64,000 bases of DNA, taken from assembly GCA_002364085.1 (NCBI GenBank), contig DEXK01000008.1:29786-93785 (forward strand), read 5' to 3'. Every line of letters begins with the position of its first letter. Positions within the stretch are counted from its first letter, which is position 1. Origin of the DNA: Balneolaceae bacterium UBA3186 (lineage in GTDB: Bacteria; Bacteroidota; Rhodothermia; Balneolales; Balneolaceae). The notes beneath the pieces are model-generated. The model did not search any database. It was not told the origin of the DNA and worked only from the letters and a program-made list of their open reading frames with translations. This document shows positions 14,009 through 63,700 of this stretch, one piece after another. The translations under genes and the position numbers were made by a program.

Positions 14009-15220
14009 TTATTTAAGCATTTCCTTAACAGTATTAAAATCTCCATCATTTGGCGCGGGATGCACATTTAGAATCTTTGCCATAACTTCATAAAGATGAA
14101 TGTTTTCAATACGTCCCATAGTAAATTTATTCTTGAATGCAGGCCCGTGCGCTATAAATAATGCATCCATCTTGATGTTTGCATTATCAAAACCGTGCGC
14201 GCCACCACTTGGATATTCCTCACCTCTTGATTTAAAATATTCATCAGAGTTTATAGTGTAGCCTTCTTCTGCTATCATTAAGAAATCTGGCGTTCTGATA
14301 TTGTTTTTAAGGTGAAAGCGTTCGGGAATATCTTCCTTTGAGTAAATCCTGTAGTTTTGCTCCCCTGCTTTTAAAGAGGAATATATGTCTGATTTGACCG
14401 CACCCTCTTTCACATTAAACATAAGTGCAGGGGAATAGGAAATGACTTCTATTTTATTAACATCAATGTAGTTGTCCAGTATAACTTTTTTTGACGGAGA
14501 TACTTCGATCATACCATGATCAGAAACAATCATCAGATTAACAGATCTATCATTGTCGAGTTGTTCCAACTTTTCCATTAAATAACCAACTAATTCATCG
14601 GCCTGTTTAATAGATTCTATTACCTCTTCTGAGTCTGGTCCATAACGATGTCCTTGACTATCGACAAAACTAAAATAAAGTGTTCCAAGATCTACGGGTT
14701 CTTTCTCTCTGGTCAACCACTTCAGAACTGTATCTATTCTTGCTTCATTTGCAATACTACCGTCATAACTTTTCCAATGTGTTGGTCTCATATCCTGAAT
14801 AGGAGCTTCTGAGCCAATCCAAAACATGGTACCCGCTCTTTTACCGGCTTTTTCTACAGTGTTCCAGATGGGTTCCCCTAAATACCATTCAGGATTTTCA
14901 ACCGCATCTCGGTTTCCCATAGAGTATCTTGCTTCCATCTCAGGATCATACATATTATTGCCTATCAATCCATTATTCTCCGGATATAAACCTGTAGCAA
15001 TCGCGTAATGGTTTGGGAATGTCTTTGTTGGAAATATTGGAATCAGTCCTTCTGATGTAACCCCGTTCTTAACTAGTTTATCAAAATTCGGAGTGGCTGT
15101 TTTTGATAAATAATCAGCGCGAAAACCATCAAATGAAATTAGTAACAGCTGTTGTTCTTCATTTTTTGGAGAACACCCAATCAAAACTAATACGGATAGA
15201 ACAATTAGAAGCTTTTTCAT
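14009..15220 (-). CDS. Ectonucleotide pyrophosphatase/phosphodiesterase (ENPP/NPP, alkaline phosphatase superfamily) lipoprotein
   Basis: Lipobox LIGC; LISFDGFR, TKTFPNH (Thr nucleophile), DSQGH, SDHG and GAHG metal-ligand motifs. Confidence 0.93.
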   Translation of the reverse strand: MKKLLIVLSVLVLIGCSPKNEEQQLLLISFDGFRADYLSKTATPNFDKLVKNGVTSEGLIPIFPTKTFPNHYAIATGLYPENNGLIGNNMYDPEMEARYSMGNRDAVENPEWYLGEPIWNTVEKAGKRAGTMFWIGSEAPIQDMRPTHWKSYDGSIANEARIDTVLKWLTREKEPVDLGTLYFSFVDSQGHRYGPDSEEVIESIKQADELVGYLMEKLEQLDNDRSVNLMIVSDHGMIEVSPSKKVILDNYIDVNKIEVISYSPALMFNVKEGAVKSDIYSSLKAGEQNYRIYSKEDIPERFHLKNNIRTPDFLMIAEEGYTINSDEYFKSRGEEYPSGGAHGFDNANIKMDALFIAHGPAFKNKFTMGRIENIHLYEVMAKILNVHPAPNDGDFNTVKEMLK

Positions 15221-15254: not shown

Positions 15255-16544
15255 TTATTCGAAATCTGTTGTTAATTTAAAGCGTGCAATTCTATTATTG
15301 CCGGTATCTGCCACATATACTACAGCTCTATAGTAGGCTACACCGCTTGGATTCCTGAATTGCTTTGGACCTGCCCCTTCGCCACCAAATGAGACAAGAA
15401 TTTTCTTGCTGTTAGCATCAGCACCTACCGGAGGATTTACCCCTTCCTGTCCATTTGATTGAAATTGATATAAAGAGTCTGTTTCTGAATCAACCACAAA
15501 AATAAATGCATCATCATCCCCTGAAAAAGCAATATCAGTTGGCAATTGGAATTTACCGGGCTCATATAAAAAGCCATTCGCTTGTGAAGTATCCTGAGCC
15601 AAAAGTGAAGAGTTCTGCTGAAATACTAAACCATCAGTAGTCTCAACTGCATTAATCCACAATACTCTGAAATCTATTTGCTGAGATTGTGAAGCCTGCG
15701 CGATTAAAAAGCTTCTATCATCTGTTAACCGGTCTCTTTGAGGAGGTGTAACGAAAGAGGCTACTGAACTTAATCTTACAGCACTTCTTAATGAAGGGTT
15801 AGTAGGATTCAACGTAGTGATCTGACGTACATTCGTCATTTTTTCTGTTGCAACTCCATTTATTTCAATTCTTGAAAACTCCAGAACTGTGTTATCAGGT
15901 GCGGCAACTTGATTGGTGCTGTTTAATGGCCCTCTTCTAGACAAATAAATCGAATTATCAGCCAAAACTGTAATTCCTGTTATTTCTACATTTTCATAGT
16001 TGTTTGATGAGCTTTTATTAAGTCTGGCATTCTGTGCAGCTGAAGTACTTAAACTAGCATCATCAAACGGAAAAATTAGTGTATCAACAAATTCCAGATC
16101 CCCTGCACCGTTCAGATTTTTAATTTTAAAAACAGCCGGCAGATTGAAAGTAGTTGGGACTCCATTTTTATCAATAGTTGTATCTATTCTTGCAGACACA
16201 TAGATATTTAACAACCTGTCTTGTGTAACTGCATTCGCTCCTTGTAGCTGAATAGTTCTTCTAGGTGAGAGGTCTGCTCTGTCAAGTAAATGTACACCTT
16301 GATTATCAGTTACGTAAACGAACGTATCGAAACCGATATGAACGTCGTTTGGAGCATCGAAACCACCCCAAAATGGAAGTACAGGAGCATAACCATCAAC
16401 ATTTTCCAATCGAGGGTCGATCTTACCTTCATCAAATATTTCTTCGTTCGTTGAATCATTTTTAGATCCGAAAATAGATTCACACCCTGTTCCAAAAACA
16501 GCAAGCAGAACTATTAAAAATCCTAATTTCTTCATTCTAATCAT
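15255..16544 (-). CDS. Lipoprotein with NHL-type beta-propeller
   Basis: Lipobox GTGC; C-terminal NHL repeat GGEGAGPKQFRNPSGVA..VYVADTGNNRI and FQLPTDIA..FVVDS; ATGA overlap with the upstream PorV-like gene. Confidence 0.75.
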   Translation of the reverse strand: MIRMKKLGFLIVLLAVFGTGCESIFGSKNDSTNEEIFDEGKIDPRLENVDGYAPVLPFWGGFDAPNDVHIGFDTFVYVTDNQGVHLLDRADLSPRRTIQLQGANAVTQDRLLNIYVSARIDTTIDKNGVPTTFNLPAVFKIKNLNGAGDLEFVDTLIFPFDDASLSTSAAQNARLNKSSSNNYENVEITGITVLADNSIYLSRRGPLNSTNQVAAPDNTVLEFSRIEINGVATEKMTNVRQITTLNPTNPSLRSAVRLSSVASFVTPPQRDRLTDDRSFLIAQASQSQQIDFRVLWINAVETTDGLVFQQNSSLLAQDTSQANGFLYEPGKFQLPTDIAFSGDDDAFIFVVDSETDSLYQFQSNGQEGVNPPVGADANSKKILVSFGGEGAGPKQFRNPSGVAYYRAVVYVADTGNNRIARFKLTTDFE

Positions 16545-17539
16545 AAACTAAATCCTAACGAAATTCTGTGTATAGTTCCTAAACGGTCGAAGTTTGTGAA
16601 GCCGTAATCAGCTTTAAGTGTTTTTCCTGAAAAAGGAATTTTTATTCCTGCTCCAAAACTTGGTAGTAATCTCTCTTCATTTCCAAATTCGTACCCGGCT
16701 CTGAAAAAGAACTGATCCATGAAGCTGTATTCTCCACCAATATTTAACTCCTCTGAGTTATCACTTGGGTTATTGATTTGTGCAGTTAATACAACCTTGT
16801 TTTCCTCTGTTTCATAAACATCATAAGCTGCTCCAAAAATAAATCTAGTTGGTAAAGAAAGCTCACTTTCAGGCTCTCGTGTTACTTCACCTTGTGGGGT
16901 TGAATTTGAAACCTCTCCTTCGGGTGATGCATCGAATCCAAAGTTATTTACGCTTACACCAAACCGAAGTCCGGTATCACCAACGTCATAAGAAAACCCA
17001 AAATCTATTGCTCCTGTTTGATAAGTCACATCAAAAAAGTTTAGGTAATAGTATCTCAAAGTAATTCCATAGCTAAATAAATCAGTAATTTTATGAGAAC
17101 CAGTTAACCCTGCAGATAGATGATGTGTTCTAAATGTACGTCCATCACCAAAAGGCTGCGTTTCTGTTGTTACGTTTTGATCTCCTGATGTGAAATACTG
17201 AACAGAGCCACCGATAGCAAAATCTCTGTATTTATGAACATAACTGAAATATTGTTGATTCGTCTCAACCAGATACGATGTATGTGAAAGGGTTGCAAAC
17301 GAACTTCCTATTTTAGAAGCTAATGCTGGATTCCAGTATAAACTTGAGCCATCAGTTGCATCCGCCATGTTTGAATTTCCCATTCCAGCACTTCTGGCAT
17401 CTACAGTTATCTTAGTAAACTGAAAGCCTTCGGTTCCTGATCGGTCATCTCCATAAGAGGTTTGCCCAAATGTTTGCGTGCCGGCAAAGAAAATAATTCC
17501 GGCTAAAATAAACGAAGTAAGTTTAGAGTAATTTCTCAT
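16541..17539 (-). CDS. PorV/PorQ-family (FadL-like) outer-membrane beta-barrel, T9SS shuttle paralogue
   Basis: GTEGFQFTKITVDARSAGMG and SLYWNPA motifs, amphipathic strands, C-terminal HRISLGFSL; ATG at 17539 overlaps the TBDR stop (TGATG); in-frame TTG at 17542. Confidence 0.9.
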   Translation of the reverse strand: MRNYSKLTSFILAGIIFFAGTQTFGQTSYGDDRSGTEGFQFTKITVDARSAGMGNSNMADATDGSSLYWNPALASKIGSSFATLSHTSYLVETNQQYFSYVHKYRDFAIGGSVQYFTSGDQNVTTETQPFGDGRTFRTHHLSAGLTGSHKITDLFSYGITLRYYYLNFFDVTYQTGAIDFGFSYDVGDTGLRFGVSVNNFGFDASPEGEVSNSTPQGEVTREPESELSLPTRFIFGAAYDVYETEENKVVLTAQINNPSDNSEELNIGGEYSFMDQFFFRAGYEFGNEERLLPSFGAGIKIPFSGKTLKADYGFTNFDRLGTIHRISLGFSL

Positions 17540-20493
17540 CAAAAATTGATTGAAAGTCCAAAGACGATGTGTCTTTGCTGTAAAAAGTTTGCGGGGTTTT
17601 CATAGCTTGGTAAGCCATTATCTGTAGGATCCAAATATCTGGGATCTCTTACACTGTTCGGTACGTCATACGATCTGTCGTCTCTTAGGGCTATAAGTTC
17701 AGCCTGACCGCTTGGGTATTGTTTATAACCTTCACCGGTTACAGGATTAATAACTACTGCACTCTTATTATTCAGAAAGTTTGAAATCTCTAAGAATGTA
17801 GATACTCTGGTATCTCCAATATTAAACCATTTTTGAAGATTGAAATCCATATAAAACCAAGCAGGCCCAACTTGACTGTATCTCTTCGCAGGGTCGTCAA
17901 TCTGCTCATAAATCGGTCTCCAGTTTTCTTCTCCTGTAATAGGATTTCTTTCCGTACCAACTCTTTCAAATGGTGTATACCGAGCGCCGCTTCTCCATAC
18001 TCCGGATACGAATAACTGGAAGTTATTTAAAACTGGACTGTCAAAAATTCCGTTTTCTCTAGCATGAGTAAATGTAATGTTCCCTTTTATATCAAAAGGA
18101 CGATCCCAAGCTAATGGAGTTTCAATATTATTACCAACATTCTGACTACCTGATATGCTGTTTAAATTATCATCATTTGTAGAACTCAATCCTTCAGCCC
18201 TGCTGTATGTTACCGAAAGTTGACCTCTCAATAAATCTCTGTATCTCTTTAAATATGAAACCTCAACTCCACGAGACCTCGCATAATCCCCATTAATCCT
18301 GAATGCTTTTGTAACCGGTCTTCCATCTATATCATTAACTCTAATGCTCTGAGAAGTCACAAAATCATATTTATCTCTCCAAAAAGCAGAGATATTTAAC
18401 GCATCGTTAGAAGTTATTTGATTCCGCAGGCCAATTTCATAAGAGATATCCACTTCTCTGTTCAAGTTTGGATTACCTAAATTTGGCAAATCTGACTGAT
18501 CCTGAAAGAACGGATCAAGACCTGCATATACAAAACTCGGATGTGGAATTCTCGCTGAATGCCCATAGTTAAAGAACAGCACCTGATTTTCTCTTACCGG
18601 AAATGATACATTTATCTTAGGCAGAAAAATAAATTTATACCTTAGCCCCAATATCTCTTTACTGTCTTCTTGATATTGTTCTGCAACAAACTCTGGTATA
18701 GTTGAGAAAACATCAGAATTCAATGCTTCTTCTACACGCTCATCTACATATTTACCAGGAGCCCAATATTCAAAACGACCACCAATATTTGCGATCAAGC
18801 CATTATATCGAATCTTATTGGTTGCGAATATAGCTCCTCGTTTTGGTTTTACTCTCCAAGCATCAAAATTTTCTCCAACACGAAAAGTTTCCGAAACCGT
18901 ATTTTCATCAATTCTGATAGGAGCGCCAATCCAAGGTCTGGTAATGTCAATCCATTGATAGTCATTGAACTTTGATTCGAACCCAACTACTATTTGGTTT
19001 TGTTGCCCTCCAAATAACTTGGTATAACTGGAACGTAAAGTTATTTCTTCAGCGAAATGATCGTGCCATAAAGTTGCTACCCCACCATTATTAAAATACC
19101 CGGGACCAGCTAAGATATAAGTAAAATCGTCGGTGCCTTCAAACTCATTTCCCGGATAAGTAACTATACTTTCAGGATCGAATTCTCCATCAACAATATC
19201 CGGCCTCCAATCCCTTCCATTTGCATCCGCCCTTAATTGTGTAAATAATCTACTTACTTGCACTTCATAAAAAGATGAAGTTGATAAGGTTTGAGTCCAC
19301 TTTAGATAGGAAAGGTTAGAATCATGCGTGTAAGTATTCGCATTATCCAAAAAGCCGTTTGAGAATGCAAATTGGAACCCTGGTTGTACCTGAGTATCTG
19401 CTCCTGTAATTTGAAGCATTCTCGTATTTTGATTAATTGTAAGGGAACGTTGATAAGCTGCTTGGAACCTCATTCCAGGCTTTATATTATAAGTAAGCTT
19501 CATCATGCCGTTCCAACGATTTCCTTGTCTTGGAGACCAGAAGTCAGACCCGGAAATAGAAGACTGTATTTGATTCGCCGAAAGCTTGGTATAGCCATCT
19601 TCAAAGGCAACTTGCGCTGTTGCATAAAAAGAGATCTTCCCTGGAATATCCAGCCCTAATTTTGGCAAGATCTTTTCAGCGAGCACCCCAGGTCCACCAA
19701 TACTGAATTCATATATATCCTGGAAGTAATTAGCCTGATTATCCATTACGTTAGAGCCAAAATTATCACGCTTGTGAGAAAAACTTCCCTCGTAAGTATC
19801 TCCGCCATTTCTTGTTTTCACAGAAACAACTCCTGAGGTAACATCACCATACTCAGCGCCAACTCCACCTGTAATTACTTCAATATTACTGAATGAATTT
19901 GCTCCAAGATCCAGTCCAAAACCAGTTCCTGCAAGTGGATCCTGAGCAGAAACTCCATCCACTACATAACCCGTTTCATAAGCTCGACCACCTTTTATAT
20001 ATAAGCCGGTAGGATCTTTAATTACTCCTGATTGTAATGAAACTGCATCTTCAACTTTTCTCACTGGTGCAGCTTCAATATCTTTTCTTGAAATGGTCGC
20101 AGAGGTAGTTGATTTCTCTACATCAAAAATAGGACGTTCTCCGATTACAACAATTTCTTCTCCTGAAGTTAAAACTTTAGGCTTTAGTTTATAATCGAGC
20201 TCTGTAAATTCTCCGGCTTCGACTTTGATAGCCGTTAAAAGTACTGTCTCGAATCCGATGTATGTGATTCTTACAGAATATTCGCCCGGACGAATCTTAT
20301 CAATTTCATAATCACCATCAATACCAGTAGCTGTACCAAAGCTAGTTCCTGTAATAAGTACCGTTGCACCAATTAAGGTTTCACCTGTTTCGGCATCAGT
20401 GATAACACCTTTGATTCCCCCTGTTTGTGCAAAAACAGCAGAGCCAGTGAATAATAAAAATAAGGCTATCAGTATGCTTTTTAATCTTTTCAT
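17539..20493 (-). CDS. TonB-dependent receptor with N-terminal carboxypeptidase-regulatory-like domain
   Basis: Signal peptide, IKGVITDAETGETLIGATV, plug LYIKGGRAYETGYVVDGV, NPNLNREVDISYEIG, terminal RHIVFGLSINF. Confidence 0.93.
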   Translation of the reverse strand: MKRLKSILIALFLLFTGSAVFAQTGGIKGVITDAETGETLIGATVLITGTSFGTATGIDGDYEIDKIRPGEYSVRITYIGFETVLLTAIKVEAGEFTELDYKLKPKVLTSGEEIVVIGERPIFDVEKSTTSATISRKDIEAAPVRKVEDAVSLQSGVIKDPTGLYIKGGRAYETGYVVDGVSAQDPLAGTGFGLDLGANSFSNIEVITGGVGAEYGDVTSGVVSVKTRNGGDTYEGSFSHKRDNFGSNVMDNQANYFQDIYEFSIGGPGVLAEKILPKLGLDIPGKISFYATAQVAFEDGYTKLSANQIQSSISGSDFWSPRQGNRWNGMMKLTYNIKPGMRFQAAYQRSLTINQNTRMLQITGADTQVQPGFQFAFSNGFLDNANTYTHDSNLSYLKWTQTLSTSSFYEVQVSRLFTQLRADANGRDWRPDIVDGEFDPESIVTYPGNEFEGTDDFTYILAGPGYFNNGGVATLWHDHFAEEITLRSSYTKLFGGQQNQIVVGFESKFNDYQWIDITRPWIGAPIRIDENTVSETFRVGENFDAWRVKPKRGAIFATNKIRYNGLIANIGGRFEYWAPGKYVDERVEEALNSDVFSTIPEFVAEQYQEDSKEILGLRYKFIFLPKINVSFPVRENQVLFFNYGHSARIPHPSFVYAGLDPFFQDQSDLPNLGNPNLNREVDISYEIGLRNQITSNDALNISAFWRDKYDFVTSQSIRVNDIDGRPVTKAFRINGDYARSRGVEVSYLKRYRDLLRGQLSVTYSRAEGLSSTNDDNLNSISGSQNVGNNIETPLAWDRPFDIKGNITFTHARENGIFDSPVLNNFQLFVSGVWRSGARYTPFERVGTERNPITGEENWRPIYEQIDDPAKRYSQVGPAWFYMDFNLQKWFNIGDTRVSTFLEISNFLNNKSAVVINPVTGEGYKQYPSGQAELIALRDDRSYDVPNSVRDPRYLDPTDNGLPSYENPANFLQQRHIVFGLSINF

Positions 20494-20497
20494 AATT

Positions 20498-22006
20498 CTA
20501 TTGTTTGAAGCCTAAACGTTCGATCACGATCTCATTGATCAGGTTTTCCAGATTATTATTACCATCAAGTATGGTAATATCTAAACTGAAATAGATCAGA
20601 TTAGATTCTGCATTTTCTATTGCTACTCCTTTGTAGCCAAAATAAGGAGCCTGACTACTATTTGGTCTTCTTCTTCTGAATTGAGCAGCATAAAGCTCAG
20701 TACTCCCACTTACACCTTTTATTGGTCTTTCATTAGTTAAGGCAAAAGATCCTGAATTTACTTTAAGTGTTTCTGATAAAGATACTTCCGTTGGAACTAC
20801 TAAGGAATCTTCGAATAAATAAAACTGACCTGTTGCAATTGAATCTACAGGAAGGAAACTAAACACAGGATCTTCACGACTTATACTTTTCATAGGAATA
20901 TTTACGAATGCCGTTCCGTTATTATCGAAGAACTCATCCAGAATTTCCTGTGCATAAGTTATATTTCTATCTATGTCATCTGATATCCAATAAATATGAT
21001 CCCATTTAGATAGTGTTTTTATCAAAGTAGGATCAATAACTGTTGGAAACGCTTCTGATAGCGCAACTTTATCCTGTTCAACTTGTCCATCATTAATAAT
21101 CCAAACATCAGGGTTAATTCCCTGAGACTGTAAAAGAGCCAAATGTTCGTTTTGCTTATTTAATGAACTAGGACCTCCAATATCATTTAAAAAAAGTGTA
21201 TTAGATGTTTGCTCTTTGATATACCATGAAAGCGAATCCACTTCACTTACTGATTCTGCCGCATCCACAGCTCTTACATAAAATGTATTTCTGGCTCCTA
21301 CTTCTACCGGTATTGTAAGTATTTCACCACCGATCTGAATGGTTGAATAGCGTTTCCCCAGAAAAACTTGAGCATCTTTTTGCCCTGAACTAGAATTATC
21401 TACTTCCAATGATATAAATAGCTGGCCGTCATCATCTTCAGTAAACGGAATTTCTACCCATCCGTTTACAGTGTCATTTACCGCAACCTCAGTTCTAACA
21501 ATATTAAGCAAACCATCTGGATCACTGAAATTCCATCCAAAACTTGATACTGAAAATAAAGTATCCGGAGGAGATTGATTTGAGTTTATACTAACCTCAG
21601 GGTCTGAATTTACAACGGGATAAATAAGAGATGCGCCTACAGGATCTGCCAAGCCCTTATCATCTACTGCTCTTACTTTGAAAAGCACATCATCAGTCTG
21701 CTGCCCTGGTGTGATCGGAAGAATAAAAACGCTATCTGTCTTAGTTGTAAAAGAGAAATTTCCTTCAGATGTATCATTTATAGCATACTCAAACCCTGAA
21801 ATAAACCCATCAGGATCGCTACCAAACCAAGAAATTTGAATTTGGCTGGACAAACGAAAATCGTTTCCACGATTTATCCTTTCTACAGTCAAATTTGTTG
21901 TAGGTGGTTGGTTTTCTGAGAATTCTCCGCTAATTGTTTCTTTGCATCCATTCCAAAAAATGAACGTCCAGAATATAAGAAGTAGTAAAAGGGTGTATTT
22001 TTTCAA
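20498..22006 (-). CDS. Hypothetical lipoprotein with FN3/Ig-like N-terminal segments
   Basis: TTG start; lipobox WNGC; NQPPTT, ISWFGSDPDGFISGFEY and FYVRAVD segments; no SusD/RagB motifs recognised. Confidence 0.75.
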   Translation of the reverse strand: MKKYTLLLLLIFWTFIFWNGCKETISGEFSENQPPTTNLTVERINRGNDFRLSSQIQISWFGSDPDGFISGFEYAINDTSEGNFSFTTKTDSVFILPITPGQQTDDVLFKVRAVDDKGLADPVGASLIYPVVNSDPEVSINSNQSPPDTLFSVSSFGWNFSDPDGLLNIVRTEVAVNDTVNGWVEIPFTEDDDGQLFISLEVDNSSSGQKDAQVFLGKRYSTIQIGGEILTIPVEVGARNTFYVRAVDAAESVSEVDSLSWYIKEQTSNTLFLNDIGGPSSLNKQNEHLALLQSQGINPDVWIINDGQVEQDKVALSEAFPTVIDPTLIKTLSKWDHIYWISDDIDRNITYAQEILDEFFDNNGTAFVNIPMKSISREDPVFSFLPVDSIATGQFYLFEDSLVVPTEVSLSETLKVNSGSFALTNERPIKGVSGSTELYAAQFRRRRPNSSQAPYFGYKGVAIENAESNLIYFSLDITILDGNNNLENLINEIVIERLGFKQ

Positions 22007-22020
22007 GAGACAAATTATTA

Positions 22021-22058
22021 AAAAAGAAAGGAGCCACCTATATAATTAAGGTGGCTCC
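22021..22058 (-). terminator. Intra-operonic terminator/stabilising hairpin after the 901-aa gene
   Basis: GGAGCCACCT/AGGTGGCTCC perfect 10-bp stem; followed on the minus strand by TTTCTTTTT. Confidence 0.85.
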
Positions 22059-22070
22059 ATTTCAATATGT

Positions 22071-24776
22071 TTATTTAATCAATAGCATTTTTTTGGTGCT
22101 AGTGAATGAACCGGCTTGGATTCGGTAAATATACATTCCACTTGATAGGTTACTTGCATCAAATGGTACGATATGGAATCCTGAGTTCATTTTTTCATTG
22201 ATCAATGTGCTCACTTTTTGACCCAGCATGTTATATATAGTAAGTGTTACATCAGCCGTTTTAGGCAATGCAAACTTAATATTTGTTGTTGGGTTGAATG
22301 GGTTCGGGTAATTTTGCTCTAGGGCAAATTTATCCGGGGTTCCCGCTTCGAAATCATTCGAAGTGATCACTGCTCTTTCAATAGTAATGTGTCTGTAGAT
22401 TGGCTCCCAATCATCTCCGAAGTTGCCATAAGAACCACGAACACCTAAAGTATCAGAACCGTCAGTAGCTCTTACATGCCACACGAATGAACCTGATTGA
22501 CCAACGTCAACACCTTGCTCTGCAAGGAATTCATTAACATCTACTGTACTTGCCAGCAAAGAAGTTGCAGTTCCTTCACTATCAGACATAGAGCTTACAA
22601 GAACTTGTGTAGTATCTTCACTTAGAAGTCTCCATTCGTAAGTAACATCGTCTCCATCAAAATCAACACTACCATTCCAGGTAAAAGTGAAATCTTGATC
22701 AGCAACAATGCTTGCGCTATCAGCAGGACCTGTTAATGAAAAATCAAGAACCGGAGTAAAAGAATTACCGTCAGCTGCAATTATATCACTAGCATTTCTT
22801 GGGTGAAATTTTGGAGCTCCAAAAGATGCTGCAACAATTGCATATGCATCAAATGTTTTGCCTTCTCTAACAGTGTGGTTGTAATCATAGTTTACATTTG
22901 GCACACCAATTTGAGAATCTGAGCGAATGTCTTCATTGAAGCGAACACCGTCCGATGAATCTGCAGTTATATTCTGAAGTTCATACTCACCGAATGCTCC
23001 ACGATCAACAAGTTCAACATCTTCAAACTTAACAACCATGCCTTCATAGTTCTCAAGCTCACCACCGTTTTGCAATGCTTGAACAGTGTCAGTTGAAATT
23101 ACCGGAATTACTTGCTCCGTGTCGTTTCCTGATGAATTAACAGTAAACTCAAGGTTTACGATTTGAGTTAAAGTAAGCGAGTTACTTGCTACAGATGCTT
23201 CTGCAACTTCCAAAGAAGTTACTGTAATAGAATCTCCCCTAACAAGCGCTTCAGTAGCTGATGTTTTTTCTAAGAAAACACCACTCCAAGCAGCTGCTGC
23301 TTCCTGAAGAACGATTACACCATCTGAGTTGTCTGAAACAATAATACCTGAAATATTAACAGGAACCTGACCTGCACCTGCTAATGGGCTTGCTCCAGCT
23401 TTACCGTCTGCAGTAGCTTGAATAATAGCAATAGAGTTTATTGCTTCATCCTGAACGAAGAAGCCATAGCTTCCTGAAATAGGATCTCTACCTGTTAAAC
23501 CTTCACTGTCAGTAGCTTCAACATAAAATGAAACCGGTGTAAAGTTGTCAAAAGTAGGAAGTGTAGCTGAATAAGTACTTCCAGAAGTATTTGTCATAGT
23601 CAAAGTGTCTGAAACAGAACCTGCTGAGTAGACTAAAGAAGCCGTAGAAATAGTCGCAGAACCATCAGCTACAATATCAACAGTTACTGTTACTGCATCA
23701 GAAGAAGTTACAGCGGAATCAGACTGTGAAATGTTGCTAAATACAGGAGGTAATCCAACAACTTCAATGTCGTTTGGCCATTCATGAACTGCACCATTAC
23801 AGGTTTCTCCATCCACACAACGGATGTATGTACCTGCGTTGTTCACATCTTCTTGCCATTCTACACCATCTTCAAATGGATTTAAACCAAATACGTTTTG
23901 GTCAGCTGCAATTGTTCCATCAGGATCATCGCCGTTTACTGTTAAGAAACCACTTACGTTTACAATAGCTCCAGGAACAGGTGGAACAAATGCGCCATCT
24001 TCAGTACCAAGCTCACTATTTAATCTTCTATAATTGAATTCAGGAAGATAACCAGCAGTTCTGTCATTTCTGGTTCTTAAAGAAGTATCATAAGCATAAA
24101 TTCTGGTACCGCTTTGGTTAATAGCCCAGTTTGGTCTGTCGCCAGTAGAAACATTGCTAACACTACCATTAGTGATCTTAACGTATGCTCCATTGTATTT
24201 TCCATAATTTTCAATATTGATCTGATAAGTACCATCACTATTAGCTGTATTCAGATCGGTAAGCGGCACTTCCCAAGGATCTAATAAAGAAGCGTATTCA
24301 GGGAAATTCAGGTTTACACTTCCTTTAAATTCCGGTGTTTGATCCACAGACATTTGAGCTGTTGCATTAAAGAAAGTAAGCCTTCCTGTAAATGTTACAA
24401 CATCTCCTCTGTTTAATCCTGAAAGTAGCCCAAAATCAGATTCAACAATCTGAATAGACATACCATCTCTCCCTTGAGTAACAGCAGCTGTATCCGTAAT
24501 AAATACGTGAATCCTACTTATATCATCAATAACTCCATCGTTATCGGTATCACTTGGTGTGGCTAAACCTGAACTTCTTGGGTTAGAAACTACTACACCA
24601 GTATATACTACAGTTTGTCCATTTAATGGATGACTCTGTATTGCATTAACAGAATACTCTGTTAACGGCGTTGGGTATGTGTTAAGATCTTTTACAGAAA
24701 CTGTATCTTGTGCTTGCACAAACATTGGCAAAACTACTAACATAGTAACTGCAAAAAATTGTATCAATTTTCTCAT
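22071..24776 (-). CDS. T9SS type A sorting domain protein containing tandem OB-fold-like modules
   Basis: Signal peptide; C-terminal FALEQNYPNPFNPTTNIKF...SSGMYIYRI...TKKMLLIK; two repeats of the pattern V..TGVV / L.RGD.VT.T / YEG..VK....V seen in ExeM/YhcR-type OB folds. Confidence 0.88.
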   Translation of the reverse strand: MRKLIQFFAVTMLVVLPMFVQAQDTVSVKDLNTYPTPLTEYSVNAIQSHPLNGQTVVYTGVVVSNPRSSGLATPSDTDNDGVIDDISRIHVFITDTAAVTQGRDGMSIQIVESDFGLLSGLNRGDVVTFTGRLTFFNATAQMSVDQTPEFKGSVNLNFPEYASLLDPWEVPLTDLNTANSDGTYQINIENYGKYNGAYVKITNGSVSNVSTGDRPNWAINQSGTRIYAYDTSLRTRNDRTAGYLPEFNYRRLNSELGTEDGAFVPPVPGAIVNVSGFLTVNGDDPDGTIAADQNVFGLNPFEDGVEWQEDVNNAGTYIRCVDGETCNGAVHEWPNDIEVVGLPPVFSNISQSDSAVTSSDAVTVTVDIVADGSATISTASLVYSAGSVSDTLTMTNTSGSTYSATLPTFDNFTPVSFYVEATDSEGLTGRDPISGSYGFFVQDEAINSIAIIQATADGKAGASPLAGAGQVPVNISGIIVSDNSDGVIVLQEAAAAWSGVFLEKTSATEALVRGDSITVTSLEVAEASVASNSLTLTQIVNLEFTVNSSGNDTEQVIPVISTDTVQALQNGGELENYEGMVVKFEDVELVDRGAFGEYELQNITADSSDGVRFNEDIRSDSQIGVPNVNYDYNHTVREGKTFDAYAIVAASFGAPKFHPRNASDIIAADGNSFTPVLDFSLTGPADSASIVADQDFTFTWNGSVDFDGDDVTYEWRLLSEDTTQVLVSSMSDSEGTATSLLASTVDVNEFLAEQGVDVGQSGSFVWHVRATDGSDTLGVRGSYGNFGDDWEPIYRHITIERAVITSNDFEAGTPDKFALEQNYPNPFNPTTNIKFALPKTADVTLTIYNMLGQKVSTLINEKMNSGFHIVPFDASNLSSGMYIYRIQAGSFTSTKKMLLIK

Positions 24777-24784: not shown

Positions 24785-26887
24785 TTATTTGATTATTGTA
24801 AGTTTTCCTTTTTCTATTTGTCCTGTATTTAAATCTTTAACGGTAAATAGATATAAACCCGTCGTTAAGATCTGATTAGCTTCGCTCTGTAAATCCCAGG
24901 CATGCTCACCACCGGGAAGCACTCTGGGGTCGTCACTAAAATCATCAAACCAAGAGATATCTCCGGAATATGTTTCAGAATCATGCTCAAGCTCTGCTAT
25001 AATATCTCCTGCAATAGTATAAATTCTGATTTCGGCTTTCGAAGGCAGGTTATAAAAATATAGTTTTCGATCGCCCTCATTCGGCCCATCCCAAGCAGCG
25101 TTTACTTTATATGGATTAGGATAAACACCTACTTCAAATCCATCATCACCAAAGTTAGTATTGGTTGGTGTGCCAGGGAAAACACGAACTGCGTTAGCAT
25201 TGGTACTGGTTTCCAGGCTTTCAACTCCAAACTCAGCATCTCCTCTGTCAAAAGCTGTTACAGAAACCTGATATTGCCAACCACTCAATAAATTTGATAA
25301 GTCATATTTGTAATAATATTCCACTGTATCGCCTTCAAATGTAACAGGTTCGTTAAGCTCCACTTCATTGAATCCAACATCAAAGCCAATATTATTATTT
25401 GGCTTGTCAAACTCTCTAATCAATCTGGAATTTGGATTTATATCCTGCCCAAGATCCGAGCTGTACACACGATAGCCTTCAAAATCCATCTCTCCGGATA
25501 CTCTGTCTACAGATTCTTCCGCTGTTTTATCCCAATAAATAGAAACTTTTCCAGCTTCTAAAACAATTTTTGTTTTGGGATTATCAGGCGGAGTTGGAAA
25601 TAAGTACCGTGTTAATTCCCCGTTTCCATCTGTATCTTCACCAGGGTCAAGTACACCATTTTTGTTTTTATCTTCTCCTCTGAAAACACTGTTGGCTGAG
25701 TTTATTGTACTCACCATATTTACTCTGGAATCTTCATTATCAACAGACTTACCGGGCTGCCCTTGAAATTGATCAGGCTTCAAAGCAGCACTAAATACAA
25801 AGTAAACAGTTATTGTTTCTCCCGGTTCTACTTGAGGAAAAGGTCCCATCGAAATAAATGAAATATAATTCCCATTACCGCTTTGACCGTCTTCTCTAAG
25901 ATTTTGCTCGTTATCTTTATAAGGAAATTGTTGAGCCATTCTATCATAACGATCATTATCATTGGCAGGTGCAGTAAAAGCCCCAGCTCCGGCACTAAAC
26001 AACCAATAACTTGGACCCAGATCAGGCACATTAAAACCTGTTTCGGTAAACTTTCCATCCAGTGTATCCGGATTATCAGGGTGGAAGAAAGAGTTTCTAT
26101 ATTCTGCACCAATAATTGAAACGGCACCGTAGGTATTTATACTTGGATCATCTGGTGAACCTGCATCAAAAGCATACATGGTATTCAGTGAATCCATAAA
26201 ACCTACACCATTCTTATTAAAAAATGCCCCTCCGGTTTCAGTAGCACTATTTACATTTCGAACTACCAAATCGGCATACATCCCAACATACACACTATCC
26301 CAAGTTTCCGGAAGTGCATGTAAATCACTGTTGTTGGTGATATCGTATTTCAGAATTGTAAAATTTTCAGTAAATGGGAAGCCCCAATTGTAGCTTTCTA
26401 ATTTAACATCTGTATAAAGCGGGTTGTCATGACCTTGTATTTCAGTCCCGTTAACACTTCTTCTTCGATCAGTAAAAGCTGTTAAAATATCTTTTTCACT
26501 TATTGCTGACACAGAAAAGAATTCATTATTTGGATCAGTACTTCTTCGGGTTATTATTGTCTCTGATGTAAATTCGAAACCCCTTGCCCCTCTGGCATAA
26601 CCTGATGGATTAGTGACTGAAGATGAAGATAATCTGATCTGACCTCCCACATCAGCTCCGATCCATATACCAGCCTCAAACAAGTGCTCGGTTCCTGTAG
26701 ATTTTGGAAAGCGCATACTTGAGCCGCTTTCGGGGTTATTCCGAACATCAGGCTTCCCTAAAGTTCCAAAGTTAGTAATGGATAAACCTATAATTCCGGC
26801 ATCTGTTTCTGCTCTTTCAAATGGAACTTGTGCTTGCGCACTAAACGGAACTACTAATAAAATCAGGAGTAGGATTAACTTCTTCAA
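24785..26887 (-). CDS. Secreted hypothetical protein with Ca-binding loop, FN3-like domain and atypical T9SS-like C-terminal domain
   Basis: TTG start; signal peptide; EDKNKNGVLDPGEDTDGNG; DFEGYRVY...YQVSVTAFD; C-terminal VGVYPNPY...TGLYLFTV...GKLTIIK. Confidence 0.75.
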   Translation of the reverse strand: MKKLILLLILLVVPFSAQAQVPFERAETDAGIIGLSITNFGTLGKPDVRNNPESGSSMRFPKSTGTEHLFEAGIWIGADVGGQIRLSSSSVTNPSGYARGARGFEFTSETIITRRSTDPNNEFFSVSAISEKDILTAFTDRRRSVNGTEIQGHDNPLYTDVKLESYNWGFPFTENFTILKYDITNNSDLHALPETWDSVYVGMYADLVVRNVNSATETGGAFFNKNGVGFMDSLNTMYAFDAGSPDDPSINTYGAVSIIGAEYRNSFFHPDNPDTLDGKFTETGFNVPDLGPSYWLFSAGAGAFTAPANDNDRYDRMAQQFPYKDNEQNLREDGQSGNGNYISFISMGPFPQVEPGETITVYFVFSAALKPDQFQGQPGKSVDNEDSRVNMVSTINSANSVFRGEDKNKNGVLDPGEDTDGNGELTRYLFPTPPDNPKTKIVLEAGKVSIYWDKTAEESVDRVSGEMDFEGYRVYSSDLGQDINPNSRLIREFDKPNNNIGFDVGFNEVELNEPVTFEGDTVEYYYKYDLSNLLSGWQYQVSVTAFDRGDAEFGVESLETSTNANAVRVFPGTPTNTNFGDDGFEVGVYPNPYKVNAAWDGPNEGDRKLYFYNLPSKAEIRIYTIAGDIIAELEHDSETYSGDISWFDDFSDDPRVLPGGEHAWDLQSEANQILTTGLYLFTVKDLNTGQIEKGKLTIIK

Positions 26888-26987: not shown

Positions 26988-27668
26988 CTAAAGTTGTTTA
27001 GAGTAAAAGTGAGACATAACCTTTTGACTCACACCCAAATAGTATGAAATTACGATTATCGTAAAAATTAATTGCAACTTCACTACTCCAACTTTCAGGT
27101 ACTTTCTTGAAGAAGTGACTACACAATCATCCATAATTTTAAACTTTCCATACTTCTTTACATCTGATATTATTTTTTGATCTTCCATCACTTTAAGATC
27201 CTCATCGAAGCCTTTTATGCTTTCGAAAACCTCTTTTTTCACAAAAAGACTTTGATCTCCAAATCGGAAAAGGTCAACATCAAACCTAGTAAACCATGCA
27301 TACAGCTTAAGTAAAGAGTGCTCAGGATTAAAAGCTAAACGATAACACCCGGCTATGTATCCTTGATCGATACTTTTTTGTATATCTTCCACAAGAGAAA
27401 TAGGCGGCTCTGAATCTGCATGCAAAAAATACAATACGTCTCCCGAAGATTTTTCTGCCCCAAAATTCATTTGAGAAGCCCTGCCTTTTAAGGGCGAATC
27501 ATAAACCTGCTTACCCAATTCTCTACAGATCTGAGTGGTTTTATCTGTACTTCCCCCATCAATAAAAATCAGCTCAGCGTTCTTTCCTTTAATTGCTCTT
27601 TCTAAAGAATTGATACAACCTTCTATAAATTCTTCCTCATTAAAAACGGGTACTATAATACTTAACAT
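26988..27668 (-). CDS. GT2 glycosyltransferase, TIGR04283 family
   Basis: SIIVPVFNEE, IDGGSTD, GRASQMNFGA, LYFLHADS, FGDQSLFV, GFDEDLKVMED, VTSSRKY. Confidence 0.92.
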   Translation of the reverse strand: MLSIIVPVFNEEEFIEGCINSLERAIKGKNAELIFIDGGSTDKTTQICRELGKQVYDSPLKGRASQMNFGAEKSSGDVLYFLHADSEPPISLVEDIQKSIDQGYIAGCYRLAFNPEHSLLKLYAWFTRFDVDLFRFGDQSLFVKKEVFESIKGFDEDLKVMEDQKIISDVKKYGKFKIMDDCVVTSSRKYLKVGVVKLQLIFTIIVISYYLGVSQKVMSHFYSKQL

Positions 27669-27669
27669 A

Positions 27670-28269
27670 TCAATTTACATTCGCTAAATATTCCTTCCAA
27701 TCTTGTTCAGTATCAATATCATTTAAATACTTTAGTTTTGTTAATTTTATTCCAATATGCTTGGCTTTAGCTTCCGTTTGCTCCATTACTTTTTCTGTAC
27801 TCCAGTCTATCCCCTCCAATACTTCCGGGTTATATGAACTCATACCTATTAAATAATACCCTCCATCTTCTGATGGACCAAAGACTACATCAGAGGTATT
27901 TAGCTCATTGAAAGCCTGCTCCAGCACTTCATTCGTGAGAGTAGGACAATCACTCCCAATCAATACTATTTTCTCACCTCCTGAATCAAACGATTTTTTA
28001 AACGCATCTTTCATTTTCTCTCCTAAATCGCCTTCGATCTGAACTTTTTTCTTAAAATAATTTTCGTCCCAAATATCATTTTCACTCACTTCCCAGGCAT
28101 ACCATACTTCCTTTTCAGCTCTTACTTTTGAAACCTCTTCTTTAGTAATAGCCAATAATCTAAGATACACTCTCAATGCCTCATCCTTTCCAATGGTTTT
28201 TGCCAATCGTGTTTTTACTTTACCTGAAATTGTATTTTTTACGAATACTATAACTTTATTTTTACTCAC
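27670..28269 (-). CDS. TIGR04282/DUF2064-family CofC-like transferase
   Basis: FVKNTISGKVKTRLA, QIEGDLGEKM, IGSDCP, GPSEDGGYYLIG, IDWST, LNDIDT. Confidence 0.92.
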   Translation of the reverse strand: MSKNKVIVFVKNTISGKVKTRLAKTIGKDEALRVYLRLLAITKEEVSKVRAEKEVWYAWEVSENDIWDENYFKKKVQIEGDLGEKMKDAFKKSFDSGGEKIVLIGSDCPTLTNEVLEQAFNELNTSDVVFGPSEDGGYYLIGMSSYNPEVLEGIDWSTEKVMEQTEAKAKHIGIKLTKLKYLNDIDTEQDWKEYLANVN

Positions 28270-58725: not shown

Positions 58726-58756
58726 GGGTATTCCTCCATTAAATAATTAACAGTGA

Positions 58757-62584: not shown

Positions 62585-62623
62585 AAGGAACCTCTCCTTT
62601 TTGTTGAAGGTAAATTAAACGGT

Positions 62624-62696
62624 AAAAACCCTATAAATAACAGGGTTAAGTAATATAGACGCCAATAGCCAATACCGTTTTCACGATATCGGCTAT
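62624..62696 (-). promoter_or_regulatory. rplL-rpoB intergenic hairpins (stabiliser/processing site plus attenuator-like terminator)
   Basis: Minus strand ATAGCCGATATCG-TGAAAA-CGGTATTGGCTAT (13 bp, no U-tract), then AACCCTGT-TATTT-ATAGGGTT-TTT. Confidence 0.65.
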
Positions 62697-62717
62697 GTGC
62701 GAATATTGTAAGAAAGC

Positions 62718-63098
62718 TTATTTAAGCTCTACTGTTGCTCCAGCTTCTTCAAGCTTAGCTTTGATCTCTTCAGCTTCTGCTTTAGCAGCACCTTCTTTGA
62801 TAGTATTAGGTGCGCCATCAACAAGTTCTTTAGCTTCTTTCAGCCCAAGACCAGTGATTCCGCGAACTTCTTTGATCACAGCGATTTTTTTAGCTCCAGC
62901 AGATTCAAGAACTACATCAAACTCGGTTTGCTCTTCACCACCACCAGCAGCGTCTCCGCCTCCGGCTGGGCCAGCAACAGCAACAGCTGCTGCAGCAGGT
63001 TTGATATCATATTCTTCTTCAAGAACTTTTGCTAGTTCGTTTGCTTCTTTGATAGTTAGGTTGACAAGCTCTTCAGCTAGTTTATTAACGTCAGCCAT
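62718..63098 (-). CDS. rplL: 50S ribosomal protein L7/L12
   Basis: [48 protein letters not shown]. Confidence 0.99.
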
Positions 63099-63160
63099 TT
63101 TTATCTCCAGTTGTTTTTTAAAGTAAAATTTTTAATGTCTTGCGACATATTGTATAAATA

Positions 63161-63682: not shown

Positions 63683-63700
63683 AATTCTTAATTCCTCCTA

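What the first reader, a model, noticed from the sequence alone, without database searches (positions are those of the whole stretch)
22071..24776. T9SS cargo made of tandem ExeM/YhcR-like OB-fold modules with no recognisable nuclease domain
Seen: two similar modules, (TVVYTGVVVSN...LNRGDVVTFTGRL...YGKYNGAYVKITNGSV) and (PVNISGIIVSD...LVRGDSITVT...ENYEGMVVKFEDVEL), separated by Ig-like segments and ending in a canonical type A CTD. I could find no EEP, HNH, SNase or metallophosphoesterase motif. Established: such modules normally accompany a catalytic domain in extracellular nucleases. Inference: a non-catalytic surface nucleic-acid binding/tethering protein (eDNA receptor or biofilm adhesin). 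Its codon choice looks qualitatively like that of highly expressed genes (not computed).
Basis: partly seen in the sequence, partly recalled or inferred. Interest (0 to 1): 0.65.

Follow-up and report, generated by a model that had tools for sequence, protein, structure and literature searches.

The report
Enzyme-free surface DNA-binding protein
This marine Balneolaceae gene encodes an abundant cell-surface protein made of two copies of the nucleic-acid-binding module that secreted bacterial nucleases carry, but with no enzyme part, and it sits in a conserved outer-membrane import operon that most likely captures and takes up environmental DNA or RNA.

Summary
Window 22071-24776 (-) encodes a 901-aa protein with these parts:
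- a signal peptide
- module A
- an Ig-like domain
- module B
- a SusE-like Ig domain
- a canonical T9SS type A sorting domain

Both modules are divergent DUF5689 domains (the ExeM/YhcR-type tandem OB-fold). Profile-profile probability is 97% for module B and 82% for module A. Unrelated segments and neighbouring proteins score at most 1.4%.

An AlphaFold model of module A (pTM 0.84) matches only tandem-OB nucleic-acid binders in the PDB: bacterial SSB, HIN-200 domains and RPA.

No catalytic domain was found in this protein or in 15 differently built relatives. Its codon adaptation index is in the 99th percentile of the genome, and a conserved intrinsic terminator follows the gene.

The gene is second in a six-gene core: secreted protein, cargo, lipoprotein, SusD-less TonB-dependent receptor, PorV paralogue, NHL lipoprotein. 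Distant lineages keep this core with unrelated flanks. There the operon ends with a T9SS EEP nuclease; Balneolaceae have an NPP phosphodiesterase in that position.

Best reading: a non-catalytic surface nucleic-acid receptor feeding an uptake operon. The closest published system is the Bacteroides ddbABCDEF / Riemerella DUF5689 system, but this is not a member of it. Binding is inferred, not shown.

This scan has already reported the same operon type in other phyla.

The parts
22071..24776 (-). Gene for the 901-aa T9SS cargo (P0001)
   Evidence: ORF and translation. 170 homologs, all in Balneolaceae-type genomes. CAI 0.733, 99.1 percentile.
24711..24776 (-). Signal peptide (residues 1-22, ...VQA|QD), type I
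   Evidence: Read directly from the sequence. Helix 2-20 with low pLDDT in the model. The cleavage site is inferred.
24087..24704 (-). Module A (residues 25-230): divergent DUF5689-like tandem OB-fold
   Evidence: hhalign against nuclease-type DUF5689: probability 82%, E 1e-5. 7 of 35 orthologs weakly hit Pfam OB-fold tRNA_anti-codon. Model pTM 0.84, and the Foldseek top 50 are all SSB/HIN/RPA-type OB proteins.
23742..24086 (-). Extension of module A (residues 231-345): holds most of the invariant YDTSLRxRNDR motif (residues 229-239, which starts in module A) and a small beta domain
   Evidence: Invariant columns D230, R234, R236, N237, D238, W307 and W333. Beta strands in the models. No family match.
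23457..23741 (-). Ig-like domain (residues 346-440)
   Evidence: Profile match to the Ig-like domain of P. gingivalis peptidylarginine deiminase, E 2e-5. Beta-sandwich in the model.
22737..23444 (-). Module B (residues 445-680): DUF5689-type tandem OB-fold
   Evidence: hhalign against DUF5689 alignments: probability 97%, E 1.7e-11, 180 columns covering both barrels. A Rhodothermaceae relative has a Pfam DUF5689 hit (49 bits) at the equivalent place.
22332..22736 (-). SusE-N-like Ig domain and linker (residues 681-815)
   Evidence: PF14292 at E 4e-4 here; it hits 16 of 35 orthologs, best E 4e-7.
22074..22310 (-). T9SS type A C-terminal sorting domain (residues 823-901)
   Evidence: PF18962 E 3.6e-12. 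TIGR04183 48.2 bits against cut-off 23. PDB 8glj CTD.
22020..22058 (-). Intrinsic terminator: 9-bp GC-rich stem, 11-nt loop, T-run, 12 nt after the stop codon
   Evidence: Sequence. Fold energy -22.4 kcal/mol. An equivalent hairpin plus T-run, with a different sequence, is present in 7 of 9 orthologous loci. The consensus scan missed it because its loop limit is 8 nt.
24785..26887 (-). Operon gene 1: 700-aa secreted protein with a non-canonical CTD-like end (P0002)
   Evidence: No family match apart from a weak PorZ C-terminal match, E 8.5e-4. 46-50% identical in distant operon copies. 8-nt gap to P0001.
20498..22006 (-). Operon gene 3: 502-aa lipoprotein (P0003), candidate partner of the receptor
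   Evidence: Signal sequence plus Cys. No family match. Not DUF5689-like. Conserved in all operon copies.
17539..20493 (-). Operon gene 4: TonB-dependent receptor with CarboxypepD_reg N-domain and plug, no SusD partner (P0004)
   Evidence: Pfam and NCBIfam. 54-59% identical in distant copies.
16541..17542 (-). Operon gene 5: PorV/PorQ-family barrel, a paralogue of the housekeeping PorV
   Evidence: NF033709 at 178 bits. It scores 72 bits on the PorV equivalog model, against 271 bits for the true PorV on contig C20.
15255..16544 (-). Operon gene 6: NHL-repeat lipoprotein
   Evidence: Pfam NHL. 43% identical in L125.
14009..15220 (-). Gene 7: NPP-type (type I) phosphodiesterase/nucleotide pyrophosphatase lipoprotein
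   Evidence: PF01663 E 2.8e-94. Same position in most Balneolaceae loci examined, L120-L124; one extra receptor gene away in Gracilimonas L002/L003. A T9SS EEP nuclease takes this place in L125 and L127.

Best explanation
P0001 is a non-catalytic surface receptor for extracellular nucleic acid. It is produced in large amounts and exported by the type IX secretion system.

**Shown**
- It has a Sec signal peptide and a canonical type A CTD.
- The genome has the SprA translocon and a true PorV.
- It carries two DUF5689-type modules. Each is a pair of OB-like barrels of the kind found in front of the catalytic domain of secreted nucleases and in DdbD.
- No enzyme domain is present.
- It is gene 2 of a conserved operon: secreted protein, this cargo, lipoprotein, TonB-dependent receptor, PorV paralogue, NHL lipoprotein, followed by a phosphodiesterase.
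- Its codon usage is that of the most highly expressed genes.
- A conserved terminator follows it.

**Inferred**
- After export, the CTD is cleaved and the protein is linked to the outer-membrane surface.
- Its four OB-like barrels bind DNA and/or RNA without sequence specificity, probably with help from divalent cations, because the protein is very acidic.
- The bound polymer is cut by the genome's T9SS DUF5689-EEP nuclease, which is encoded elsewhere, and trimmed by the operon's NPP lipoprotein.
- The products pass through the operon's TonB-dependent receptor, probably capped by the adjacent lipoprotein.
- The terminator lets the cell make much more receptor than transporter.
For: **Homology.** Module B against DUF5689: probability 97%, E 1.7e-11. 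Module A: 82%, E 1e-5. Controls: at most 1.4%.

**Fold.**
- The module A model has pTM 0.84.
- All 50 best PDB matches are tandem-OB nucleic-acid binders: Thermus/Deinococcus SSB (E 5e-6), HIN-200 domains of IFI16, MNDA, p202, p204 and AIM2 (TM 0.43-0.51 normalised on the target), RPA, Teb1 and BRCA2.
- p204 HINab-dsDNA also appears among the whole-protein hits.
- The same HIN resemblance was published for DdbD (10.1101/2025.03.18.642099).

**DUF5689 goes with DNA.**
- It sits in the genome's own T9SS EEP nuclease.
- DdbD belongs to the Bacteroides DNA-utilisation locus.
- It is in the Riemerella protein required for natural transformation (PMC8459023).
- About half of the orthologs add a lamin-tail domain, as ExeM does (PMC6085458).

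**Operon.**
- The six-gene core is orthologous in L125 and L127, with unrelated flanks and a different GC content.
- There it ends in a T9SS EEP nuclease.
- That nuclease is 35% identical to the EEP+CTD part of this genome's nuclease.
- Balneolaceae have an NPP phosphodiesterase at that position.

**Abundance.** CAI is in the 99.1 percentile, against the 46th-86th percentiles for the neighbouring genes. A conserved terminator follows the gene.

**No enzyme.** No catalytic domain was found here or in 15 relatives with other architectures.
Against: - No binding experiment exists for this protein or for any DUF5689 domain; even for DdbD, DNA binding is a prediction.
- The mature protein is strongly acidic (pI 4.05; 34 K+R against 112 D+E), which is unusual for a DNA binder. 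The DUF5689 and EEP domains of the genome's own nuclease are just as acidic, however.
- P0001 itself does not reach the Pfam DUF5689 or NCBIfam ExeM thresholds.
- TM-scores to HIN domains are moderate (about 0.5, rmsd 7-8 A).
- The receptor is not detectably related to DdbC beyond the shared architecture.
- Relatives of module A in other organisms are combined with starch-type CBM53/CBM48/CBM20-like modules and with cohesin/dockerin, not with nucleases.
- OB-folds also bind oligosaccharides and proteins.
- Within Balneolaceae the whole neighbourhood is syntenic, so NPP adjacency there carries little weight on its own.
- The terminator separates P0001 from the transporter genes.
Confidence: 0.6

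Rival explanations
1. The OB-like modules bind some other polymer, such as a polysaccharide, another polyanion or a protein. The operon would then be a SusD-less polymer-utilisation system for that substrate, and the phosphodiesterase or nuclease at its end would be incidental or act on a phosphodiester-containing glycan such as a teichoic-acid-like polymer.
For: - OB stands for oligonucleotide/oligosaccharide binding.
- Relatives of module A elsewhere are fused to CBM53 (40 and 35 bits, above cut-off), to CBM48/CBM20-like modules and to cohesin/dockerin modules.
- A SusE-like and a Sde0182_C/CBM56-like signal lie in residues 680-770.
- The protein is very acidic.
- The Rhodothermaceae relative carries a chitobiase/hexosaminidase C-terminal domain.
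Against: - Every characterised or annotated context of DUF5689 is nucleic acid: nucleases, Ddb, Riemerella transformation.
- The structural neighbours are exclusively nucleic-acid-binding OB proteins.
- The operon carries no glycoside hydrolase, lyase or SusD in any of the copies examined, but does carry a nuclease or an NPP.
Confidence: 0.2
2. It is mainly a structural or adhesive surface coat: an eDNA-dependent biofilm adhesin or an S-layer-like abundant protein. Its link to the transporter genes would be only positional.
For: - CAI is at the level of GroEL, EF-G and ATP synthase.
- A conserved terminator separates it from the transporter genes.
- It evolves faster (33% identity in L125) than the receptor (54%) and gene 1 (46%), as exposed coat proteins do.
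- Copy number of the modules varies: four modules in L126.
Against: - The gene is kept between gene 1 and the lipoprotein-receptor genes in every copy examined, including lineages with unrelated flanks.
- It is 8 nt from gene 1.
- An abundant receptor and a scarce channel is also the expected stoichiometry for a capture system.
Confidence: 0.12
3. It is a cryptic enzyme: the invariant polar cluster around YDTSLRxRNDR and the conserved H90, D95, E302, D303 and D336 would form an unrecognised active site, for example a new phosphodiesterase.
For: This is the most conserved stretch of the family, and the residues are charged and invariant in 35 orthologs. Residues 231-345 have no family assignment.
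Against: - No enzyme family matched by sequence or by fold.
- The model is made only of small beta domains.
- Conserved Arg/Asp clusters fit ligand or Ca2+ binding equally well.
- I could not inspect coordinates to see whether these residues cluster in space.
Confidence: 0.04

Closest known systems
[quoted passage not shown]
   Same: - It is a non-catalytic DUF5689-type, HIN-like tandem OB surface protein.
- It is encoded with a SusD-less TonB-dependent transporter that has a CarboxypepD_reg N-domain and a plug.
- Nucleases or phosphodiesterases lie in or next to the locus.
   Different: - It is anchored by the T9SS (type I signal peptide plus type A CTD), not as a lipoprotein.
- It has two DUF5689 modules, and neither reaches the Pfam threshold.
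- It is not adjacent to the receptor: a different lipoprotein sits there, and a terminator intervenes.
- The receptor shows no detectable orthology to DdbC-like transporters.
- The operon has extra conserved genes: a 700-aa secreted protein, a PorV paralogue and an NHL lipoprotein.
ExeM/NucH/Xds-type extracellular nucleases (LTD + YhcR-like OB region + EEP domain; PMC6085458) and this genome's own T9SS nuclease at contig C3:101437-104034
   Same: It has the same OB module family (DUF5689), and many orthologs also have an N-terminal lamin-tail domain. In ExeM the OB region is required for activity.
   Different: There is no EEP or other catalytic domain. The module is duplicated. In distant lineages an EEP nuclease is a separate gene at the end of the operon.
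HIN-200 domains (AIM2, IFI16, p202, p204) and two-OB SSBs of Thermus/Deinococcus
   Same: These are the best structural matches of module A. Each is a pair of OB barrels that binds DNA through the backbone without sequence specificity.
   Different: Only fold-level similarity: 7-11% identity, TM about 0.5. P0001 is acidic rather than basic overall. The known proteins are intracellular, and no homology is claimed.
SusE/SusF-type accessory surface glycan-binding proteins of polysaccharide utilisation loci
   Same: It would play the same role: an abundant, non-catalytic, multi-domain surface protein that holds the polymer near a TonB-dependent transporter. P0001 has a SusE-N-like Ig domain.
   Different: Different binding modules (OB instead of CBM), a different anchor (T9SS), and no SusC/SusD pair.

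Membership tests
T9SS type A CTD cargo | C-terminal sorting domain matching TIGR04183/PF18962 at the very C-terminus | tested here: met
   TIGR04183 48.2 bits (cut-off 23). PF18962 46.8 bits (cut-off 27), at residues 823-898 of 901.
T9SS type A CTD cargo | N-terminal Sec signal peptide, and T9SS machinery in the same genome | tested here: met
   The signal peptide was read from the sequence. SprA_N 306 bits on C3. True PorV 271 bits, above the 250 cut-off, on C20.
DUF5689 (PF18942) / YhcR-ExeM-type OB module | Match to the Pfam model above the gathering score | tested here: not met
   No DUF5689 hit for P0001, or for any of 35 orthologs, at E<=0.1. A Rhodothermaceae relative does hit at 49 bits.
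DUF5689 (PF18942) / YhcR-ExeM-type OB module | Homology detectable by profile-profile comparison over the whole domain, with negative controls | tested here: met
   Module B: 97%, E 1.7e-11, 180 columns. Module A: 82%, E 1e-5. Other segments and neighbouring proteins: at most 1.4%.
DUF5689 (PF18942) / YhcR-ExeM-type OB module | Tandem OB (HIN-like) fold | tested here: met
   Module A model pTM 0.84, with the top 50 PDB hits all tandem-OB proteins. Module B was not modelled alone.
ExeM/NucH extracellular endonuclease | EEP catalytic domain C-terminal to the OB region | tested here: not met
   No PF03372 or NF033681 hit at E<=1. The only EEP genes of the genome are elsewhere.
ExeM/NucH extracellular endonuclease | N-terminal lamin-tail domain | tested here: not met
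   Absent in P0001. Present in the roughly 1070-aa orthologs of Gracilimonas and other genomes.
Ddb-type DNA utilisation / Riemerella transformation locus | DUF5689 protein is an SPII lipoprotein encoded directly next to the transporter | tested here: not met
   P0001 has a type I signal peptide and a T9SS CTD. The neighbour of the receptor is P0003, which is not DUF5689-like.
Ddb-type DNA utilisation / Riemerella transformation locus | Transporter orthologous to DdbC / RA0C_RS04915 | tested here: not met
   BLASTP, phmmer, and an HMM built from six transporters that sit next to canonical DUF5689 lipoproteins all failed to hit P0004 or any large receptor of this genome. Only the domain architecture is shared. 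The reference DdbC sequence itself was not available to me.
Ddb-type DNA utilisation / Riemerella transformation locus | Secreted nucleases encoded in the locus | tested here: inconclusive
   This genome has no nuclease in the locus, but it has an NPP phosphodiesterase lipoprotein. A T9SS EEP nuclease ends the operon in L125 and L127.
Ddb-type DNA utilisation / Riemerella transformation locus | Locus required for DNA depletion or uptake | not testable with these tools
   Needs genetics in a cultivable Balneolaceae strain.

The most novel reading that the evidence does not exclude
The operon could be the outer-membrane DNA-entry route of a natural-transformation system in FCB bacteria outside the Flavobacteriales. 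P0001 would be the abundant primary DNA receptor that holds long DNA at the surface and hands it to a TonB-powered channel. That would be a T9SS-dependent alternative to the type IV pilus/ComEA route. The genome does encode ComEC.
Probability: 0.12. Interest if true: 0.85.

Novelty: new variant of a known kind. Interest (0 to 1): 0.55.

Why it matters
Dissolved DNA and RNA are major phosphorus and nitrogen pools in seawater and sediments, yet how Gram-negative bacteria without competence pili bring them across the outer membrane is barely known. The only described route of this kind is the Bacteroides Ddb / Riemerella DUF5689 system, published between 2021 and 2025.

This protein would extend that principle in three ways:
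- to a second, unrelated transporter family
- to T9SS-anchored rather than lipid-anchored receptors
- to marine Balneolaceae and other FCB lineages

It is also a clean case of a nuclease's substrate-binding part living on as a free-standing, highly expressed receptor. That makes the biochemical question 'does DUF5689 bind DNA?' directly testable with a soluble protein.

Tried and rejected
- **BLASTP between the two modules:** nothing significant. The relation is visible only with profiles.
- **Pfam and NCBIfam on P0001:** only the CTD passes.
- **Foldseek with the whole 901-aa model:** swamped by Ig/FN3 arrays and uninformative apart from p204 HINab. I therefore modelled residues 25-345 alone.
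- **The search for related loci in genome contigs:** it mostly returned proteins sharing only the CTD pattern. Only L004-L007 were real relatives.
- **Same-genus ORFs of 893-894 aa and one of 1062 aa with DUF5689 hits:** I took these for orthologs. They share only the CTD with P0001 or nothing at all, so they are other DUF5689 proteins.
- **Orthology of the receptor to DdbC-like transporters:** rejected.
- **DUF5689-likeness of P0002, P0003 and the NHL protein:** rejected.
- **HMM searches with modules A and B in the own genome:** no paralogues.
- **Ribosomal-protein reference set for CAI:**
  - The L16 model found nothing.
  - The EF-Tu motif was not found in any ORF of at least 150 aa.
  - The S10 cluster appears to be absent from the 21-contig assembly.
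  - I used S12, S7, L1, L10, L11, EF-G, RpoB/C, GroEL, DnaK, AtpA/D, enolase and GAPDH instead.
- **Consensus terminator scan:** it missed the terminator after the gene because of its loop limit. Reading the sequence and folding it found the hairpin.
- **Net charge as a test of DNA binding:** rejected as uninformative, because the genome's real nuclease is equally acidic.
- **The look-up of sequencing runs:** not available, so expression and termination could not be checked with reads.
- **Context look-up of P0172:** no record.
- **Literature searches:** no description of this operon was found.
Full report
**1. What is there**

The minus-strand ORF at 22071-24776 encodes a 901-aa protein.
- It starts with a typical signal peptide (…VQA|QD).
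- It ends in a canonical type A T9SS sorting domain. PF18962 gives E 3.6e-12, and TIGR04183 scores 48.2 bits against a cut-off of 23.
- No other Pfam or NCBIfam model reaches its threshold.
- The genome has the SprA translocon and a true PorV, so the sorting signal is meaningful.
- 170 homologs were found, the named ones all from Balneolaceae (Balneola, Gracilimonas). About half of them are roughly 1070 aa and carry an extra N-terminal lamin-tail domain.

An AlphaFold2 model built on 35 orthologs has mean pLDDT 83.7 and is all-beta. It divides as follows:

| Part | Residues |
|---|---|
| Module A | 25-230 |
| Extension of module A | 231-345 |
| Ig-like domain | 346-440 |
| Module B | 445-680 |
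| Second Ig-like domain | 681-815 |
| CTD | 823-901 |

The first Ig domain matches the Ig-like domain of P. gingivalis peptidylarginine deiminase (E 2e-5). The second matches the SusE N-domain in 16 of 35 orthologs.

**2. Are the two modules real, and what are they?**

- BLASTP between the modules finds nothing.

The lead to their identity came from a Rhodothermaceae relative. At the place of module B it hits Pfam DUF5689 with 49 bits.

I collected DUF5689 domains from 29 loci of the same phylum and compared profiles:

| Query | Result against DUF5689 |
|---|---|
| Module B | probability 97%, E 1.7e-11, 180 columns, both halves of the domain |
| Module A | probability 82%, E 1e-5 (nuclease-type subgroup) |
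| Three other segments of the protein | at most 1.1% |
| Three neighbouring operon proteins | at most 1.4% |

Seven of 35 orthologs also give weak hits to the Pfam OB-fold model tRNA_anti-codon in module A.

I modelled residues 25-345 alone from 12 orthologous segments (pTM 0.84). In Foldseek against the PDB, all 50 best matches are tandem-OB nucleic-acid binders:
- the two-OB SSBs of Thermus and Deinococcus (E 5e-6)
- HIN-200 domains of IFI16, MNDA, p202, p204, p205 and AIM2, several solved with DNA (TM 0.43-0.51 on the target)
- RPA, Teb1, BRCA2 and LysRS

So each 'module' is a pair of OB-like barrels.

**3. Is a catalytic domain hidden somewhere?**

None appears with any of these:
- Pfam or NCBIfam at E<=1
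- sequence or profile search of the PDB
- the models
- fifteen relatives with other architectures, taken from a search of 1.8 billion representatives

The partner domains in those relatives are CBM53/48/20-like modules, cohesin/dockerin, DUF4397, BNR and lamin-tail domains.

At contig C3:101437-104034 lies a T9SS nuclease built as DUF1573-DUF5689-EEP-CTD. It is the only protein of the genome that reaches the DUF5689 threshold. The Pfam model also rings in Bacillus subtilis, plausibly on YhcR; the protein was not inspected.

The one unexplained feature is the extension 231-345, with the invariant YDTSLRxRNDR motif. I could not inspect coordinates, so I keep a cryptic active site as a low-probability rival.

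**4. Context**

The gene is second in a co-directional cluster:
1. a 700-aa secreted protein with a non-canonical CTD-like end
2. P0001
3. a 502-aa lipoprotein
4. a SusD-less TonB-dependent receptor with a CarboxypepD_reg N-domain and a plug
5. a PorV/PorQ-family barrel, which is a paralogue of the true PorV (72 against 271 bits)
6. an NHL lipoprotein
7. an NPP-type phosphodiesterase lipoprotein (PF01663, E 2.8e-94)

The gaps between consecutive genes are 8, 64, 4, -4, -4 and 34 nt.

Within Balneolaceae the whole neighbourhood, housekeeping flanks included, is syntenic down to 42% identity. That proves little.

More telling are three metagenomic contigs (L125, L126, L127) and a Rhodothermaceae MAG (L006). 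These have a different GC content; L125 and L127, where enough flank is held, also have unrelated flanking genes. They keep the same genes in the same order:

| Protein | Identity to the window's copy |
|---|---|
| Gene 1 | 46-50% |
| Cargo (P0001) | 28-33% |
| Lipoprotein | 30-43% |
| Receptor | 54-59% |
| PorV-like | 42% |
| NHL | 43% |

In L125 and L127 the seventh gene is not NPP. It is a roughly 400-aa T9SS-secreted EEP nuclease. That nuclease is 35% identical to the EEP+CTD part of this genome's C3 nuclease.

So a phosphodiester-cleaving enzyme at the end of the operon is kept through non-orthologous replacement. This is the strongest contextual argument that the substrate is nucleic acid.

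**5. Expression signals**

Against a reference of 14 highly expressed genes (7233 codons), P0001 has CAI 0.733.
- That is the 99.1 percentile of 2640 ORFs, level with GroEL, ATP synthase and RpoB.
- Its operon neighbours lie between the 46th and 86th percentiles.

Twelve nucleotides after its stop codon lies an intrinsic terminator at 22020-22058: a 9-bp stem, an 11-nt loop and the run TTTCTTTTTT (-22.4 kcal/mol). An equivalent hairpin plus T-run, with an unrelated sequence, follows the gene in 7 of 9 orthologous loci.

Together these suggest much more cargo than transporter is made.

**6. Comparison with what is known**

DUF5689 appears in only two papers of the held library.
- **Riemerella anatipestifer.** A DUF5689 protein and the adjacent CarboxypepD_reg-type outer-membrane protein are essential for natural transformation (PMC8459023).
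- **Bacteroides thetaiotaomicron.** The ddbABCDEF locus (three nucleases, the transporter DdbC, the DUF5689 lipoprotein DdbD and a further surface protein) is required for depletion of exogenous DNA. The DdbD model was reported to resemble the dsDNA-binding HIN domain of p202 (10.1101/2025.03.18.642099).

I obtained the same structural resemblance independently for module A.

P0001 is nevertheless not a member of that system.
- It is T9SS-anchored, not a lipoprotein.
- It is not the receptor's neighbour.
- It has two sub-threshold DUF5689 modules.
- The receptor is not detectably related to the transporters that sit next to canonical DUF5689 lipoproteins in six other genomes, although the domain architecture is the same.

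Relative to ExeM/NucH nucleases (PMC6085458), it is the substrate-binding front end without the EEP domain.

**7. Weak points**

- Binding is not shown for any DUF5689 domain.
- The protein is very acidic (pI 4.05). The genome's real nuclease is equally acidic, so this does not discriminate, but it implies cation-mediated binding.
- Module A relatives elsewhere are fused to starch-type CBMs. This keeps a non-nucleic-acid ligand alive as a rival.
- The terminator and the high CAI would also fit a structural coat or adhesin.

**8. Verdict**

I rate the non-catalytic nucleic-acid receptor reading at about 0.6. It is a new variant of a known kind.

The scan has already reported the same operon type on other DNA: Zixibacteria, Rhodothermales, Ignavibacteria, Kryptoniota and Marinimicrobia. 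I read those notes after reaching the DUF5689/Ddb link and do not count them as evidence. No publication describing this operon was found.

Noticed in passing
L006:5184-9008 (Rhodothermaceae MAG): The cargo homolog and the homolog of the downstream lipoprotein are read as one 1274-aa ORF, with the T9SS sorting domain in the middle (residues 741-815). This is either a lost stop codon or frameshift in the MAG, or a real fusion that would disable the sorting signal.
   Followed up: partly
L126:3345-7379: In this metagenomic copy the cargo is 1344 aa. The whole A-Ig-B unit is duplicated (P0001 residues 1-680 align twice), giving four DUF5689-type modules.
   Followed up: partly
own genome, contigs C3:456591-460305 and C15:532055-536651: Other PorV-family paralogues of the genome lie next to T9SS-type genes with CAI values among the top 30 long genes (465-aa and 1201-aa proteins). 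This suggests a general pairing of PorV paralogues with abundant cargo.
   Followed up: no
window 24785-26887 (-): Gene 1 of the operon (700 aa) has no family match. It is better conserved than the cargo (46-50% identity in distant copies), and its C-terminus weakly resembles that of PorZ (E 8.5e-4). It may be the partner of the operon's PorV paralogue.
   Followed up: partly
window 26988-28269 (-): Two genes match the TIGR04283 and TIGR04282 'arsenosugar biosynthesis glycosyltransferase' models directly upstream of the operon. In Gracilimonas and Balneola sp. MJW-20 they are preceded by a radical-SAM DUF3641 gene and a CMD-family gene.
   Followed up: no
own genome assembly (21 contigs): The Pfam L16 model finds nothing, and no ORF of at least 150 aa carries the EF-Tu motif. 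S12, S7 and EF-G sit at the very start of contig C13. The S10-spc-EF-Tu region therefore seems to be missing or withheld, despite a stated completeness of 100%.
   Followed up: partly
window 54424-64000 (-): rpoC, rpoB and the L7/L12-L10-L1-L11 ribosomal protein genes lie at the right end of the window. They were used as part of the CAI reference.
   Followed up: yes
own genome C3:101437-104034: The genome's only canonical DUF5689 protein is an 865-aa T9SS nuclease (DUF1573-DUF5689-EEP-CTD). It stands alone next to a MerR-type regulator gene, and its EEP+CTD part is 35% identical to the operon-terminal nucleases of L125 and L127.
   Followed up: partly
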